Below are positions 54,701 through 60,700 of a stretch of 64,000 bases of DNA, in pieces. Source of the DNA: Escherichia coli (lineage in GTDB: Bacteria > Pseudomonadota > Gammaproteobacteria > Enterobacterales > Enterobacteriaceae); NCBI RefSeq assembly GCF_048403405.1, contig NZ_CP183129.1; one strand, written 5' to 3'. The position numbers were made by a program. Each line of letters opens with the position of its first letter. The stretch's first letter is position 1.

Positions 54701-57700
54701 GAAATAAGCCAGTAACGCGATGACTGCGAGAGTTATAGATACCAGTGGAATATGCCCCAGCCAACCCGGCATATTTTTGCTTTTGGCGCTTGCCACACAG
54801 TTCTTATCGAAAGCCTTCAATTTTTTGATTAGCCATTTTGCTTTATAAGCTGCTTTTATGCCCCAGCGTTCTCCTCTGGAAGCGGCTGTTTTATCACTCA
54901 TTTCCCCCTCCGGTAATCAGTGAGTCTGATTTATCTCATGCTTGTCGTCTATCGTTAATACAATTTTAGGTCGATTTTTAATCATTGTCTACATCTTGTG
55001 AGTTATGCACATATCCACGGTCACCAAGCCAGTGCAACCCGATGCCAACAAGCAATCGGGTAAACGGGAGCGTACAGGGCATCGGCCCTGATGGTGGCGG
55101 TGGGTATGTGTATAACTTTTTTGTTGCCTTCATATAAAAATCTTATTCTTTCATCTGGATGGATTTATTGAATTTGATTTTTTATGTCAGTTTAAGTAAG
55201 TTTTTAATATGTATCCGAGTCCTTGTATATAGGAGATGATAATATGAATTTTATTTTTTGGTTTGTGGTCTTAATAGGGGCGGGATATTTGTGGAGGAGG
55301 AGGGGTTGGTTCAGTAAAATAAGGAAGCAATACTCAAGGAGAAAAACAACATTAAATGGTAACAAAGGATGTTTATATAATAAAAAAAATGACAATGATG
55401 CTTTGGAAGGTAATGGGGATTGTAATAATTTTTATTCTGAGAATAAAGAAAGTTTCTTTTGGTTAATGATTGAGAGAGGTATTAAATTTTACAGAAAAGA
55501 ATATTTGACTACGATTACTGAAAAAAATATCATGATAAGTTAGTGAGCTGGTTTGGTGAGAAATGTTATATACATTGTCAGGTTAGTTTAGGGAGTTTAT
55601 TTATATTCCCAAAACAAAAAAATTTTACTGATGAAGAACAAAAACGTTTTTTTTCTGTTTGTAATAGAATGTCCTTGGATTTTATTTTAACATTTAAAAC
55701 TAATATGCCCTTCTTACGTGTTTCTGTTGACTCTATGAAAAATAAACCGCCTGTTTGGGATGTTTATGATAAATCCAAATAAAAACATATCTGATTGTTG
55801 AGTTTTCGTGATTAAAGATGGCATTGATTATTAATACGATGAAGAACCAACAAGGGGATATTTAATAAAGAGAAAAAGGAGGATGTAAAATATTCTCCTT
55901 TTTCTTTATCGGGTATTGACGAAAAAAGAAAGTTTGATTAAATTTACCACGTTACACCGTTGCTTAATGCAACATTGCCAATGCTTCGGTTGTCTGAGAG
56001 AAGCGCCTACGGGTGACAACAATGCCAATCCGGCAATCTGAGAGGAACGCCTACGGGTGATTGCCACTGCCAATCCTCGGGTCATCTGAGACGAGGGCCT
56101 ACGGGCGATGACAGAACTCCGTTCGTCCTTGAAATCGACGGAGGGTGATAACAGAATAGCGTTATCATCAGGATTAACTGCACTTCAGTGACCATGTCAC
56201 AGCTATCCGGTCACTCGGATATCCACAAAAAAGCAGAGTATGCGATAACGTGTATCTGCCTCTTCTGATGTGTTCTGACGAATACGTCCTGCTTTCTGCA
56301 ACCTTTGTATGCCCGGTATGACGCGTTTCCATTGCGCAGCTTTGGAAAGCGGCATCTTCGGAGCAATACATTGAGCAGCAGAATGATGGGCGTGCGTCAC
56401 TTTCGTCAAGTGAAACGAAGACAAAGTGACGCACGCAAGTGCATACGCTCAGAACGCTTCAATACTGGTCTTACAGCAAAACTGACAATCTGACAGACAT
56501 GTAATGCATTGCTCAGAACGGCTGAAAGTCTTTCAACGCTCAACGTTTATATGATGATAAAAACGTATAACATTATGAAAAAAGGAGAAAAAACGACACG
56601 ATACCAAGGCGACGTCAGGAAACTGACGGACGGAGGTGCCCTGATAACGGGGGCCGGTCTGATGACCGCAAACAGTTCAGAGAACTGATTTGATACCTCT
56701 CAACAACTCAACCTTTTATCGCCCCGGTGCTCAGGTATCTGTCAGGTCGCAGGATGCGCAATATAAAACCGTCGCGCCGGGAAAAGGTAACCAGTTGAGA
56801 GCGAAAGAGGCGGAGAATCAGAGAATGTCCAGAAGAGCAAAAGCCCTGTCCCGTGAAATGCATATCCTTGCACGTCAGGCCGGAGGGAGCTTTAAAACCA
56901 TTGCAGACCGGGTCAAAATTGCAGAACGGGTTGCGGCAGAGCTGGCCGGGTTGAATATTCAGATACGATCTGTTGAGCAACTGAAATCCCGCCATATTGA
57001 AATGTATATCCATGCCCGCAGAGAACAGAATATCAGTTTACGCAGCTGTCAAAACGAAATGTCGGCTATCCGGGCGATATTTCGTGTTGCCGGACGTCAT
57101 AAACTGGCTGACCCTAAACATGAGCGCCTCAGTAATGAGGCGCTGGGGCTTTCAGGTGCCAGCAGGGCTGGCACCCGTACCGCGATATCGGACGAGCGCT
57201 TTCACGAAGCGCTCGCTCGGATTGAGCCTTATGATCAGGGGGTGGCATTAACTATGCAGTTATCCCGTAGTCTGGGATTGAGAAATGAAGAAGCCGTGCA
57301 GTCAGTAAAATCATTACGGACCTGGCAACAGGCGCTTAAAAACGGTAAAGATCGCGTTCATGTGGTTTTTGGGACAAAAGGAGGCAGACCCCGTGAAGCA
57401 TTAGTGCCGGATAAAGCCCGTGTATTAACATTAATTAATAAAGCCATTGAATATGCGGATAAACATAACGGTTATTTAATTAATCGTCCGTCATTACATT
57501 CTGCCAAAGATCGTTATATTAATGTGATGCGACGGATAGGCGGATTTATTCACGAAGAATCAAATCATGGTTTACGGTATGCCTATGCTCAGGATGTTGA
57601 AAAATATTATCTCAGTCAGGGATTCAGTCAAAAGGAAGCCTATGCATTAACCTCCATGGATTTAGGGCATGGTGACGGTCGTGGCGATTATATTAAACGG

Positions 57701-60700
57701 GTTTATAGTCAGAAAGGAGATATTGAGGAATAAGATAAAAATGAAAGTCTGTTTAATTATTTTGTTTATTAATTTTGCTTTTTGTTTTCCGTTAATGGCG
57801 AAGACGTTATTTTTAGGTGATTCATTAACGGCTGTTTATGAAATGTCAGCAAAATATGTTTTGGATGAAAAAATAAAAACAGAATATGTTTCCGGTTCGG
57901 GGTTAATAAATAAAAGTAAAAAAGATTGGATCGCTTTCGTGAATAATTTCGATTTGCGGGAGTTTGATAATGTGATTATTAGTCTCGGAACAAATGATTT
58001 TGTTCAATATGGTTCGGATGAATGGCTGAAATATTACAGTCTGGTATTTCAATTCATTGCTGAAATTCAAAGTGAAAATCCGTTAGCGACAATTGTCTGG
58101 ATATCTCCACCACATTTAAAAAATCCGGAACATGAACGTTATTTAATACATACCCGGCATATAATTAAACACAGTGCGATGTTATTAAATATTCATTATC
58201 TGGATATTAATCAGCCTCATATATTAGGAACGCAATGGCAATCTGTTATTCATAATGAAACTGTACGAACTGATGATGGAATACATATTACCCGTAAAGG
58301 GGGAGTACGGGTGATCAGAGAAGTGGTAAAAATCCTGAATGGGCAGGATTGACAAAGATAAAAAAACGGCTAAAAATGAATCTGCTTATCTCGTTGCGTA
58401 ATGCAACTTGCCAATGCTTCGGTTGTCTGAGAGAAGCGCCTACGGGTGACAACAATGCCAATGTTCCGGCAATCTGAGAGGAACGCCTACGGGTGATTGC
58501 CACTGCCAATCCTCGGGTCATCTGAGACGGGAGCCTACGGGCGATGACAGAACTCCGTTCGTCCTTGAAATCGACGGAGGGTGATAACAGAATAGCGTTA
58601 TCATCAGGATTATTTTTACGCAACGCTTCATATAACCTGCCCGCTGACGGGGAAATCACCCGTCATCAGGGAATTTCTCCGTTTTTTCAGGAGAAATTCA
58701 ATGAAGGTATCTACATTTCCGGAATCGTCTTTTTTTGACGATCTGCACTCTCTCACGCAACTGCATCACCTCTCAGGTGAGCTCGACATGGTTCTTGCTT
58801 TTGTCCGTCTGGATATTGGCGAGCACCCGGACGAAGATAATTTTCCGCCAAACTTCTGGATAATCAGTGCCGTTGCAGAGCAACTGGGCGCGTTATCTGT
58901 GGAGGCTGATTTTACCCGTCCACATCTTGAGAAAATGGTCCGCGCTGTCTGGAAAGCGGCTGAGCAAACGCCTTATGCGTCTGACTTTCGCCGTATCTAC
59001 AACGATGCGATCAAAAATGCACAGTTTGAAGATCCGGTTGAAGCGCTGATGTTTGGTGCTTAACGGCGGACATTCACTGATTTTATGACCCATACGGGAA
59101 AACATCCCGTGAGGGCTGTATTCCCTTATCTGAGGATAGCCCTTATGACTCTTTTTACATTGAATTATGGTGTTGCCCACGTAATGTCTGGTATTGCCAG
59201 TTATTTATTTCCGCATTCCCGTGTTTCTCAGCAACTGAAGGCCGTTGCTAATGATGCCCGGATGCTGAAAATCACCGCAGAAGAACTGGAGGTGATACGT
59301 TTGGACGAAAAACGGATGTATCAGAGCGGAGATTACAGAGAACTGCCGTTTATTGAGCTTGATTTGTATACAACGGCATTTCGTTTTGGCGCCCTGATTT
59401 ACTATGGACTCGCAAACCGGTGCCCCCGCATTTTTGCTTCACCGGCTGACAGTCATCGCTGAGCGGCTCGATCCGGAAATCTGGAATGAAGCCTGGCGCT
59501 GGGGTTACCGCTGCTGCCTGCAACACGAAAATGAAAAGCATGTAACCGACTGATTTAACGGACTCACAGGTGTCAGTCAGCTACCCTGAAATGGGGCTGC
59601 TTCCATTTACTGATCAGGTTTGATAACCATGATTTATGGCATTACCCGCGGACTGTTCTTTGTGGCCGATCACGTCTGTCGCTATTCCCGGAGTTGGGAA
59701 TGGCTGATGTGGCTGGTTGAGGAAGCCCGGACACTGCGAAATGTTGAGGCTGATTTGAAACTGGCTGAAAGGTATGCCGGTGAGCAAAACCGCCCTCATT
59801 CCATTTCGCTGATGAAGTGTACGCTTTATGATGCCGGATTTGCTTACGGCAGATTATTACTGTGGCGTGCGGATGGTCTGATGAGACCCTGGCCGGCATG
59901 TCTGCTTCGCCGTTTACCGGATATCGGTCAGCGGATTGATGCAGTGATCTGGCAGAAAGGCTGTGAAGCCGGCTTGGATGAGACCGTCAGTGAATGGATG
60001 GCAATGGAGATGGCTGATGAATACCTTGTCGGTATCGAACTGAGCGACTGATTTGCCGGCATTCATTCTTTTTTTACTTACCTACCCGACGGGGAAACTC
60101 CCCGTCAGGTGGACGTTTCTCCGTCTTTTTTTACCGGAGAAACACACATGTCTGTTTTACTGCCAGAAAACAAACCGTTTTCATTTCTGAGTCTGATCAT
60201 GCAACGGCTGTACCGTTTTTATGACCGTATACCGTTTGTTTCGTCAGGGATACCCGGTGAATTACCGTGGATAAGTAACCGAACCGGCCGGCGCGCTTAC
60301 CGTGCGACGGTGGTGAAAGTGAATCCCCGGCAGTTCAGGATCCGCATTACTGTACGTCTGGGCGCGCATTCGAAAGAATACCGCTTTCATTCGTTGATAA
60401 CCTCGCTGGACAGCAGGACATTTTGTTCCATAAAAGCGGCCTCCCGTGCCGGATTTGCACTGACATACCAGCTGGCACAGGTGCGTTATGCCTGGTGTCG
60501 CTGATTTGTTGTACTGATAGCACCATTGACTTTTTGTTATGACCCCGCCCGGCGGATTGATTTCCGTCAGGAGATGAATCCGCCATTTTTTTAATCAGAA
60601 TGAGGATTTATCACATGGGATATACACATTATTTTACACAAAAACAAAGCGTTGACCCCCTGATGTGGCAGAACTTCCGTGAACATCTGGACAAGCTCTA

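What the first reader, a model, noticed from the sequence alone, without database searches (positions are those of the whole stretch)
55958..58612. Duplicated ~220-bp element with tandem pseudoknot-like units showing compensatory stem changes and conserved loops
Two copies (55958-56175 and 58392-58612, ~96% identical) each follow a sigma70-like promoter (TTGACG-17-TAAATT; TTGACA-17-AAAAAT). Each has three ~45-nt units of the form GCCAAT-[A5']-[B5']-CTGAGA-[A3']-GCCTACGGG-[B3']. Stem A varies (GCTTC/GAAGC, GTTCC/GGAAC, CCTCG/CGAGG) and stem B varies (GGTTGTC/GACAAC, GGCAATC/GATTGCC, GGTCATC/GATGAC), yet complementarity is kept while the loops stay constant. The A5'-B5'-A3'-B3' order is an H-type pseudoknot topology. 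This is what selection on RNA or ssDNA structure looks like, not on a protein or a dsDNA binding site. Two more hairpins follow. Hypotheses: a protein-sequestering sRNA presenting repeated GCCUACGGG loops; a type III antitoxin-like RNA array; or a single-strand initiation/ssDNA promoter element of a leading region (each loop carries a conserved CTG).
Basis: seen in the sequence. Interest (0 to 1): 0.75.

Follow-up and report, generated by a model that had tools for sequence, protein, structure and literature searches.

The report
Known STAXI RNA motif, two copies
The duplicated element is two copies of STAXI, a pseudoknot-rich RNA motif catalogued in 2010 whose function is still unknown, here sitting just after the promoters of two operons of a conjugative island (ICEPm1 family) in E. 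coli.

Summary
Both copies match Rfam RF01728 (STAXI RNA) over the whole model (123 and 112 bits; threshold 40.5). An EFASI RNA (RF02957) lies between them. The host is an ICEPm1-family conjugative element at tRNA-Phe in E. coli, with a third copy just outside the window.

The pseudoknot reading is right. Across 85 distinct units from about 45 loci, helix A is 97% paired with compensatory changes at 5 of 5 pairs, and helix B at 6 of 6. The "conserved loop" GCCUACGGG is actually a 3-bp hairpin with a UNCG tetraloop.

Observations beyond the Rfam model:
- A sigma70-like promoter lies at a fixed distance upstream of nearly every copy.
- A conserved 3' domain of two hairpins carries a further, moderately supported, loop-tail pseudoknot.
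- Downstream genes in genomic islands are always co-directional. They are an STY4534/SSB replication module, an EFASI-integrase unit, or an operon ending in ArdC.
- The STAXI-EFASI pair also occurs on 3-7 kb plasmids.

RNA is favoured over ssDNA. The type III antitoxin and Frpo-like readings are not supported. The most likely role is a promoter-proximal leader RNA that offers repeated binding surfaces to a regulator. That role is inferred, not shown.

The parts
55916..55944 (+). Sigma70-like promoter of STAXI copy 1 (TTGACG-17-TAAATT). The -10 ends 14 nt before the 5' hairpin.
   Evidence: Across loci the -10 ends 12-16 nt before the hairpin in 37 of the 38 elements that score at least 8.
55958..56115 (+). 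STAXI copy 1, the part covered by the Rfam model. It holds the 5' hairpin (55959-55973), unit 1 (55978-56020), unit 2 (56025-56064, stem A 5' arm cut to 2 nt) and unit 3 (56070-56112).
   Evidence: RF01728, 112.1 bits, E 3e-23, model positions 1-153. Unit anatomy.
56117..56176 (+). 3' domain of copy 1, outside the Rfam model. Hairpin H4 is 56117-56143 (loop contains GTCCTT) and hairpin H5 is 56144-56169. The tail AGGAT (56170-56174) pairs with the H4 loop (56125-56129).
   Evidence: z -3.26 for the equivalent stretch of copy 2. Homology between the two copies ends at 56176.
56593..56744 (+). EFASI RNA, the usual downstream partner of STAXI and probably on the same transcript. It lies 81 nt before the integrase start codon.
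   Evidence: RF02957, 78.1 bits. 27 of 29 EFASI copies lie downstream of a STAXI on the same strand, most 430-480 nt away.
56825..57733 (+). Tyrosine-recombinase-like protein (Phage_int_SAM_2 plus Integrase_1). This is the 'XerDC integrase' of the STAXI acronym.
   Evidence: PF12834 E 3e-35 and PF12835 E 8e-51. It belongs to a 15-member cluster of homologues that follow STAXI-EFASI in other loci.
57741..58352 (+). SGNH/GDSL hydrolase gene, the last gene between the two copies.
   Evidence: RefSeq annotation.
58349..58377 (+). Sigma70-like promoter of STAXI copy 2 (TTGACA-17-AAAAAT). It overlaps the stop codon of the hydrolase gene.
58392..58551 (+). STAXI copy 2, the part covered by the Rfam model. 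It holds the 5' hairpin (58393-58407), unit 1 (58411-58453), unit 2 (58458-58500) and unit 3 (58506-58548, stem A weakened).
   Evidence: RF01728, 123.3 bits, E 4.8e-26, model positions 1-153.
58553..58612 (+). 3' domain of copy 2, consisting of H4, H5 and a tail that pairs with the H4 loop.
58646..58700 (+). Leader module between copy 2 and the first ORF (ATG at 58701). It forms two hairpins, and the second buries the Shine-Dalgarno sequence GGAGAAA.
   Evidence: MFE -31.3 kcal/mol, z -4.12. It recurs at 60088-60147 (z -5.41) and after STAXI in other ICEs.
58701..62901 (+). Co-directional operon headed by copy 2: six small ORFs of unknown function followed by ArdC (61927-62901). ArdC is the 'antirestriction' of the acronym.

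Best explanation
Both copies are members of the STAXI RNA family (Rfam RF01728).

Shown here:
- Each copy has its own sigma70-type promoter. The implied transcription start is a few nucleotides before a short 5' hairpin.
- Three non-identical H-type pseudoknot units follow. Each unit has stem A, stem B extended by a GCC-UNCG-GGY mini-hairpin, and invariant CCAAU and UGAGA single strands.
- A conserved 3' domain of two hairpins then follows, with a loop-tail pseudoknot.
- There is no canonical terminator after it, and the downstream genes run in the same direction.
- One ICEPm1-family element carries three copies, and each heads a different operon.

Inferred:
- The element works as RNA, not as ssDNA.
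- It acts as a promoter-proximal leader. The repeated, identically shaped units are multivalent binding sites for one host or ICE factor, and binding couples expression of the operons it heads. In some of these operons the first gene's Shine-Dalgarno sequence is locked in a hairpin.
- The stems differ between units so that the units fold independently and do not mispair or recombine.

The factor and the regulatory output (read-through, stability or translation) are unknown.
For: Identity: full-length covariance-model hits of 123.3 and 112.1 bits against a gathering score of 40.5. A third copy in the same genome scores 121.3 bits.

Structure: in 85 distinct units, helix A is 97.4% paired with double changes at 5 of 5 pairs. 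Helix B is 89.4% paired with double changes at 6 of 6 pairs. The mini-hairpin is 100% paired. No shuffle out of 500 reaches the observed pairing, and slid registers give 29-50%.

RNA and sense strand:
- G.U pairs number 115 and A.C pairs 24.
- 81 of 85 tetraloops are UNCG, which stabilises RNA and not DNA (argument in PMC2864571).
- A promoter match of at least 9 of 12 occurs in 47% of elements, against 1.9% of random 60-mers. The -10 ends 12-16 nt before the hairpin in 37 of the 38 elements that score at least 8.
- STAXI and EFASI RNA were detected by RT-qPCR in E. coli vesicle RNA (PMC12370729).

Leader role:
- The first downstream genes are co-directional in the genomic-island loci.
- They include an STY4534-family replication protein in 16 loci, followed by SSB in 7, and EFASI plus integrase in 15.
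- Most loci have no terminator directly after the 3' domain.
- The three copies in one ICE head three different operons.
- SD-sequestering modules follow copy 2 and recur inside its operon.
Against: - No transcript ends have been mapped for this locus, and no binding partner is known.
- On plasmids of 3-7 kb the STAXI-EFASI pair has no co-directional gene behind it. A purely cis-acting leader is hard to reconcile with that, whereas a trans-acting RNA fits.
- Unit number varies from 1 to 4, as expected for an avidity or sponge function.
- Nested MFE folding is no better than shuffles (z -0.39), so the structure rests on covariation alone.
- There is no systematic complementarity between STAXI and the downstream leaders, so no simple cis-antisense switch can be proposed.
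- Terminator-like sites downstream are only modestly enriched: 23 of 62 loci against an 18% background.
Confidence: 0.55

Rival explanations
1. STAXI is a trans-acting small RNA, or a processed fragment of the leader. It titrates a host or ICE RNA-binding protein through its repeated pseudoknots, in the way CsrB or RsmZ sponges do.
For: - The units are modular, vary in number from 1 to 4, and keep invariant single-stranded motifs.
- The element occurs on high-copy plasmids of 3-7 kb with no co-directional gene behind it.
- Rfam classes it as an sRNA gene.
- It was abundant in vesicle RNA (PMC12370729).
Against: - There is no canonical terminator after the element.
- In genomic islands it always sits directly in front of co-directional genes.
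- Three copies lie at three operon heads, instead of one strongly expressed gene.
- There are no GGA-type or other known sponge motifs.
Confidence: 0.22
2. The element works as folded single-stranded DNA. It would be a single-strand initiation site, a single-strand origin or a Frpo-like ssDNA promoter, used during conjugative entry or rolling-circle replication.
For: - Its neighbours handle ssDNA (SSB, topoisomerase III, STY4534 replication protein).
- Weinberg et al. raised the idea (PMC2864571).
- It is present on a Rep_1 rolling-circle plasmid, which needs a single-strand origin.
- Each unit holds a CTG.
Against: - G.T pairs number 115 against 24 A.C pairs, which places the structure on the gene-sense strand.
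- On the three ColE1-like plasmids the sense strand is the leading-strand template. On the Rep_1 plasmid it is the strand opposite rep. So the exposed strand carries the antisense sequence (strand logic from textbook replication models).
- If the operon containing ArdC is a leading region, the transferred strand would be the template strand, which is again antisense (inference).
- UNCG loops do not stabilise DNA.
- A normal -35/-10 pair lies at a fixed distance upstream, and no nested inverted repeat rebuilds it in single-stranded form.
Confidence: 0.07
3. The units are tandem ligand-binding aptamers, that is, a riboswitch-like leader that controls the downstream SD-locking module.
For: - The units are small H-type pseudoknots with invariant junction nucleotides, like preQ1-type aptamers.
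- They are arranged in tandem upstream of SD-sequestering hairpins.
Against: - Weinberg et al. scored the motif as not a switch (PMC2864571).
- The conserved 3' domain separates the units from the putative expression platform.
- No alternative pairing links them.
- The downstream genes share no metabolic theme.
Confidence: 0.07
4. The two copies are recombination products or substrates. The EFASI-integrase-hydrolase cassette would have inserted into, or can excise through, STAXI, which would serve as the attachment site of the PF12835 recombinase.
For: - Direct repeats at about 97% identity flank a recombinase gene.
- STAXI is statistically linked with such integrases.
Against: - All 27 E. coli genomes with the flanks have the full arrangement, with no single-copy form.
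- The same three copies occur in Proteus and Providencia.
- STAXI also heads operons that have no recombinase and sits on plasmids without one.
- Covariation that preserves pairing is not expected of a dsDNA core site.
Confidence: 0.05
5. The element is a type III toxin-antitoxin RNA array (ToxI-like) that is processed into units of about 45 nt.
For: It consists of tandem pseudoknot-forming repeats behind a promoter.
Against: - The units are only 64-69% identical to each other.
- No toxin or defence family matches the proteins downstream of either copy.
- The gene behind STAXI differs from locus to locus.
Confidence: 0.02

Closest known systems
STAXI RNA motif (Rfam RF01728; Weinberg et al. 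2010, Genome Biol 11:R31)
   Same: - Both copies match the full model.
- They show 2-3 tandem pseudoknots with UNCG tetraloops.
- The host is in the Enterobacterales.
- The neighbours are an integrase, an antirestriction protein (ArdC), topoisomerase III and an SSB-type replication module.
   Different: Nothing essential differs. The tetraloop here is UACG, not the commoner UUCG. The conserved promoter and the 3' two-hairpin domain described here lie outside the 153-nt Rfam model.
EFASI RNA motif (Rfam RF02957)
   Same: It is the regular downstream partner of STAXI, it precedes PF12835 integrase genes, and its function is also unknown.
   Different: It is a separate structure with a long-range outer helix, not a pseudoknot array. 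It is present after copy 1 only.
Processive-antitermination leader RNAs (HK022 put, Bacillus EAR)
   Same: They are structured RNAs placed directly after the promoter of long operons of mobile elements and act in cis. This is a functional analogy only.
   Different: There is no sequence or structural similarity. Read-through of terminators has not been shown here, and terminator enrichment downstream is weak.
Protein-sponge sRNAs (CsrB/RsmZ)
   Same: They carry many repeats of one small structured binding unit.
   Different: Those are stand-alone genes with terminators and GGA loops. STAXI has neither.
ToxI type III antitoxin repeats
   Same: They are tandem pseudoknot-forming repeats.
   Different: ToxI repeats are near-identical and are always followed by the toxin gene. 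Neither condition holds here.
Frpo / ssi single-stranded promoters and priming sites of plasmid leading regions
   Same: They share the neighbourhood of SSB and antirestriction genes in conjugative elements.
   Different: Those are long imperfect hairpins that rebuild a -35/-10 duplex on the transferred strand. STAXI has small pseudoknots on the gene-sense strand and an ordinary upstream promoter.

Membership tests
STAXI RNA (RF01728) | Covariance-model score above the curated gathering threshold over the full model | tested here: met
   123.3 and 112.1 bits against 40.5, model positions 1-153 of 153, E 4.8e-26 and 3e-23.
STAXI RNA (RF01728) | [quoted passage not shown] | tested here: met
   There are three units per copy. 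The pseudoknot helix is supported by covariation.
STAXI RNA (RF01728) | UNCG-type tetraloop within each repeat | tested here: met
   All six units in the window read C(UACG)G. Across loci, 75 of 85 units have UUCG and 6 have UACG.
STAXI RNA (RF01728) | Found in Enterobacterales, near genes for SSB, topoisomerase, antirestriction proteins or XerDC-like integrases | tested here: met
   The host is E. coli. A PF12835 integrase lies 650 nt downstream of copy 1. ArdC lies 3.3 kb downstream of copy 2. The third copy sits next to topoisomerase III.
Type III toxin-antitoxin RNA (ToxI-like) | Near-identical tandem repeats | tested here: not met
   Units within one copy are 64-69% identical to each other.
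Type III toxin-antitoxin RNA (ToxI-like) | Endoribonuclease toxin gene (ToxN/AbiQ/CptN class) directly downstream | tested here: not met
   None of the 10 flanking proteins matches PADLOC, NCBIfam or PHROGs toxin families. The downstream genes differ between loci.
Frpo-like ssDNA promoter | Long imperfect inverted repeat that rebuilds -35 and -10 boxes in one strand | tested here: not met
   only short AT-rich matches that cross and do not nest.
Single-strand initiation site / single-strand origin | The structure-forming strand is the one exposed as ssDNA (lagging-strand template, displaced strand or transferred strand) | tested here: not met
   On the ColE1-like plasmids L005, L006 and L008 the STAXI sense strand is opposite to RNAII sense. 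On the Rep_1 plasmid L004 it is opposite to rep. G.U pairs outnumber A.C pairs on the sense strand. Which strand is exposed follows from textbook replication models and was not measured.
Single-strand initiation site / single-strand origin | Orientation-specific priming activity on ssDNA | not testable with these tools
   This needs an M13/f1 ssi assay.
XerCD multimer-resolution site (cer-like) | XerC and XerD half-sites separated by a 6-8 bp spacer | tested here: not met
   There are none in window 55000-60000. On the small plasmids the sites lie more than 1.2 kb from STAXI.

The most novel reading that the evidence does not exclude
STAXI is the common cis-acting leader of a regulon spread over the ICE. 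One factor, encoded by the host or the element, would recognise the repeated pseudoknots on the nascent transcripts of three operons: replication, the recombinase unit, and the operon containing ArdC. Binding would license their expression, for example by processive read-through or by opening the SD-locking hairpins, giving a burst of expression on activation or on entry into a new host. Small plasmids that carry STAXI-EFASI would then be tapping into, or titrating, that same factor. A bolder variant is that the RNA itself is a decoy against a host defence or nuclease.
Probability: 0.25. Interest if true: 0.65.

Novelty: already known. Interest (0 to 1): 0.3.

Why it matters
STAXI has been an orphan structured RNA since 2010. 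It sits at the heads of the replication, recombination and ArdC-containing operons of a widespread family of conjugative islands (SPI-7/ICEPm1 type) that carry virulence and other accessory genes between Enterobacterales. If it proves to be the shared control point of these operons, it would be a handle on how these elements switch on.

For this scan, the main result is that the finding is a correct rediscovery of a catalogued motif and not something new. The incremental additions are the fixed promoter, the 3' pseudoknot domain outside the Rfam model, the use of three copies at three operons in one ICE, and the evidence for RNA over ssDNA. These narrow the hypotheses but do not solve the function.

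Tried and rejected
- Megablast of the 3.2-kb region against plasmids, and blastn of one copy against phages, found nothing. The locus is chromosomal, in 27 of 5426 E. 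coli genomes.
- Nested MFE folding gave z -0.39 for the sense strand and +0.20 for the antisense strand. Single units gave z near 0. This is uninformative because pseudoknots cannot be modelled that way.
- The MAFFT alignment of units put a length difference inside stem A. I replaced it with an anchor-registered, N-padded alignment.
- Type III antitoxin: no toxin is present.
- Frpo-like ssDNA promoter: there is no nested inverted repeat.
- XerCD resolution site: it lies elsewhere on the plasmids and is absent from the window.
- Cis-antisense switch between STAXI and downstream leaders: 3 of 34 loci reach p<0.05 and the median p is 0.74. The 12/13 match between 58489-58501 and 58651-58663 is therefore treated as chance.
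- Small ORF in EFASI behind its SD-like motif: the window has no start codon there, and other loci have only a 12-codon frame with poor spacing.
- Terminator directly after STAXI or after EFASI on small plasmids: none is conserved.
- Literature: no functional study of STAXI turned up in the searchable library.

Full report
**What is there**

The window region 55958-58612 holds two direct copies of an element of about 220 nt, at 55958-56176 and 58392-58612. They differ by three substitutions, a one-base indel and a three-base indel, and their flanks are unrelated. A scan of the whole window against Rfam identifies both as full-length STAXI RNA (RF01728). They score 123.3 and 112.1 bits against a gathering score of 40.5, with E-values of 4.8e-26 and 3e-23 over model positions 1-153 of 153. 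The scan also finds an EFASI RNA (RF02957, 78.1 bits) at 56593-56744, between the two copies.

STAXI was described by Weinberg et al. in 2010. It is a pseudoknot repeated two or three times, found in Enterobacteria near genes for SSB, topoisomerase, antirestriction proteins and XerDC-like integrases. The authors left its function unknown. They considered an ssDNA role and argued that the UUCG tetraloops favour RNA (PMC2864571). EFASI stands for 'Enterobacteriaceae, Frequently Around STAXI and Integrases' (Rfam text quoted in PMC12370729).

**Host element**

The window is 100% identical to the chromosome of E. coli CRE287. The locus occurs in 27 of 5426 complete E. coli genomes, always on the chromosome, and is absent from the plasmid and phage collections at these sensitivities.

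The annotation shows an integrative conjugative element of the SPI-7/PFGI-1 type, with TIGR037xx conjugation proteins, TraD, TraI and an integrase, inserted at tRNA-Phe. It belongs to the ICEPm1/2/3 family of Proteus mirabilis, which is known to be active and shared with E. coli (PMC11278526).

The gene order is as follows: T4SS genes, STAXI-1, EFASI, a PF12834+PF12835 tyrosine-recombinase-like protein, an SGNH hydrolase, STAXI-2, six small ORFs of unknown function, ArdC, a CbtA toxin, a DUF1281 protein, TraI, the integrase, and then attR. About 12 kb upstream of the window start, the same genome has a third full-length STAXI (121.3 bits). It lies 183 nt upstream of an STY4534-family ICE replication gene and runs in the same direction, with topoisomerase III next to it. 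One element therefore shows almost the whole STAXI acronym.

**Structure**

I gathered relatives from annotated plasmids and from one pattern scan of the species-representative genome collection, then located copies with a profile HMM. This gave 64 STAXI regions in about 45 loci. All are from Enterobacterales or unclassified Proteobacteria, and together they hold 85 distinct units of about 45 nt.

I aligned the units by their own anchors and scored this structure: CCAAU, A5', a linker, B5', UGAGA(G), A3', GCC-UNCG-GGY, B3'. The results were:
- 94.5% of cells pair, against 78.0% in column shuffles. No shuffle out of 500 reaches the observed value.
- Slid registers give 29-50% pairing.
- The pseudoknot helix A is 97.4% paired, with changes on both sides at all five pairs.
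- Helix B is 89.4% paired, with changes on both sides at all six pairs.
- The inner three-pair hairpin is 100% paired. Its closing pair is G.U in 61 units and G-C in 24.

Ordinary MFE folding cannot represent this structure and gives z-scores near zero, so the support is evolutionary and not thermodynamic.

**Observations beyond the Rfam model**

1. Nearly every element begins with a short hairpin (GUUGC-loop-GCAAC and variants), preceded by -35/-10-like hexamers. The -10 ends 12-16 nt before the hairpin in 37 of the 38 elements that score at least 8. A match of at least 9 of 12 occurs in 47% of elements against 1.9% of random 60-mers from the same loci. This holds although the promoter sequences are otherwise unrelated.
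2. After the last unit, all elements carry a 3' domain of about 60 nt. It has a hairpin H4 with an AACCUUUGA-type loop, then a hairpin H5, then a purine-rich tail complementary to the H4 loop. Loop and tail change together: ACCUUU/AAAGGU, ACCUCU/UGAGGU, AUCUUU/GAAGAU, UUCUUU/UAAGAA, and in the window GUCCU/AGGAU. On 17 distinct combinations, 87.3% of cells pair against 79.0% in shuffles (0 of 500), and four of six pairs change on both sides. Slid registers stay at 70-74% because the sequence is of low complexity. I rate this second pseudoknot as moderately supported. Homology between the two window copies ends exactly after this tail.
3. In most loci no canonical terminator follows.

**Context across loci**

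Downstream genes in chromosomal islands always run in the same direction as STAXI. Three contexts recur:
- STAXI, then a spacer (430-480 nt in most loci), then EFASI, then about 80 nt, then a PF12835 recombinase of about 300 aa. The recombinases form a cluster of 15. 27 of 29 EFASI copies lie downstream of a STAXI on the same strand.
- STAXI, then 110-200 nt, then an operon. In 16 loci the operon starts with an STY4534-family ICE replication protein (E 4e-57), followed by SSB in 7 of them. Elsewhere it starts with a TIGR03759 ICE protein. Window copy 2 belongs to this context.
- Plasmids of 3-7 kb, either ColE1-like with RNAI or a Rep_1 rolling-circle plasmid, that carry STAXI and EFASI without a recombinase or any co-directional gene.

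In several loci of the second kind, including window copy 2, a conserved two-hairpin module lies between STAXI and the first gene and buries the Shine-Dalgarno sequence (z -4.1). It recurs 1.4 kb further on within the same operon (z -5.4).

**RNA or ssDNA**

Five lines of evidence favour RNA on the gene-sense strand:
- G.U pairs outnumber A.C pairs 115 to 24.
- 81 of 85 tetraloops are UNCG. The search pattern imposed this on only one unit per locus.
- An ordinary promoter lies at a fixed distance upstream.
- STAXI RNA has been detected by RT-qPCR (PMC12370729).
- Wherever the strand exposed as ssDNA can be inferred, it carries the antisense sequence. In the three ColE1-like plasmids STAXI is opposite to RNAII, so its sense strand is the leading-strand template. 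In the Rep_1 plasmid it is opposite to rep.

No nested inverted repeat rebuilds either promoter in a single strand, as a Frpo-type element would need. The XerCD sites of the plasmids lie more than 1.2 kb away.

**Mechanism**

These points are shown: an RNA-type structure under strong selection, its own promoter, a position at the 5' end of co-directional operons, and three copies heading three operons in one ICE.

My best inference (confidence about 0.5) is that STAXI is a promoter-proximal leader. Its repeated, identically shaped units would bind one factor and so couple the expression of those operons. The stems would differ between units so that the units fold independently.

The main rival is a trans-acting sponge or sRNA, which the small plasmids and the variable unit number favour. 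A cis-antisense switch is rejected, because only 3 of 34 loci reach p<0.05 for STAXI-leader complementarity. The type III antitoxin idea is rejected because the units are only 64-69% alike and no toxin or defence protein follows. A role as an attachment site of the recombinase is unlikely, because there are no single-copy variants and STAXI often occurs without a recombinase.

**Verdict**

Interest is low to moderate. The function of STAXI is still open, and the additions made here narrow it without solving it.

Noticed in passing
window 56593-56744 and flanks 56570-56830: EFASI (RF02957) lies at a near-constant distance downstream of STAXI. It is immediately preceded by a Shine-Dalgarno-like AAGGAG in almost all loci, but no conserved ORF follows. 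Its conserved CGCCCCGG segment has a complementary CCGGG(G) about 40 nt past the Rfam model, just before the integrase ribosome-binding site. EFASI may therefore be part of a long structured 5' UTR of the recombinase gene.
   Followed up: partly
window 58646-58700 and 60088-60147: A repeated leader module of two hairpins, in which the second sequesters the Shine-Dalgarno sequence of the next ORF (ATG at 58701 and at 60148). The z-scores are -4.1 and -5.4. Similar modules (GGGAAAcac...gugUUUCC plus a U-run, then a complementary SD) follow STAXI in at least ten other loci. Nothing in Rfam reached the gathering threshold there.
   Followed up: partly
L025, L012, L013, L009, L010, L064, L037, L050 (promoters upstream of STAXI): A subset of STAXI promoters has two GATC (Dam) sites in a conserved arrangement, TTGAAA..GGATC-N8-GATCTAMTAT, with one site overlapping the -10. 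This suggests methylation-state-sensitive transcription, for example after replication or transfer. The window's copies lack it.
   Followed up: no
window 56388-56438: A long near-perfect hairpin (GCGTGCGTCACTTT...AAAGTGACGCACGC) lies in the STAXI-EFASI spacer. Related GTCACTTGCG...CAAGTGAC hairpins occur downstream of STAXI in L008 and in L010/L012. A conserved block at window 56485-56508 (ACAATCTGACAGACATGTAATGCA) aligns with ACCATCTGACCAACACGTA in most loci. The spacer is therefore not neutral sequence; it could be more RNA structure or a DNA site.
   Followed up: no
window 58392-58401 and 58616-58625: In copy 2 only, the 5' end (CGUUGCGUAA) is perfectly complementary to the 10 nt just after the 3' tail (UUACGCAACG). 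This could close the whole element in a long-range helix that competes with the 5' hairpin. On its own p is about 0.01, which is not significant after 34 tests.
   Followed up: partly
window 58701-61774: Six co-directional ORFs of 92-215 aa lie between STAXI-2 and ArdC, with no NCBIfam or PADLOC match. The last one (61127-61774) matches phrog_7971, of unknown function (E 1e-25). Their position next to ArdC and a CbtA-family toxin suggests establishment or anti-defence genes.
   Followed up: partly
L004 (NZ_CP059920.1), L005, L006, L008, L070 and other contigs of 3-7 kb: The STAXI-EFASI pair sits on very small plasmids (ColE1-like and Rep_1 rolling-circle) that have no recombinase. In the ColE1-like ones the pair always points towards the replication origin. 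Several carry a convergent gene for a small HTH 'plasmid replication DNA-binding protein'. L004 is typed 'mobilizable' although no relaxase gene is annotated.
   Followed up: partly
L081 14613-14773 (NZ_CP166757.1, about 12 kb upstream of window position 1): A third STAXI copy of the same ICE lies in front of the STY4534-family replication gene and next to topoisomerase III. Proteus mirabilis ATCC 29906 and Providencia stuartii NCTC11800 carry the same three copies.
   Followed up: yes
L003 (E. coli pB39_V / O157 EDL933-type island), 5992-6143: The second-highest-scoring STAXI found (134 bits, after L004 at 139) lies in a urease-island context next to a Hok/Gef gene and IS66 elements. No EFASI is present within 6 kb.
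   Followed up: no
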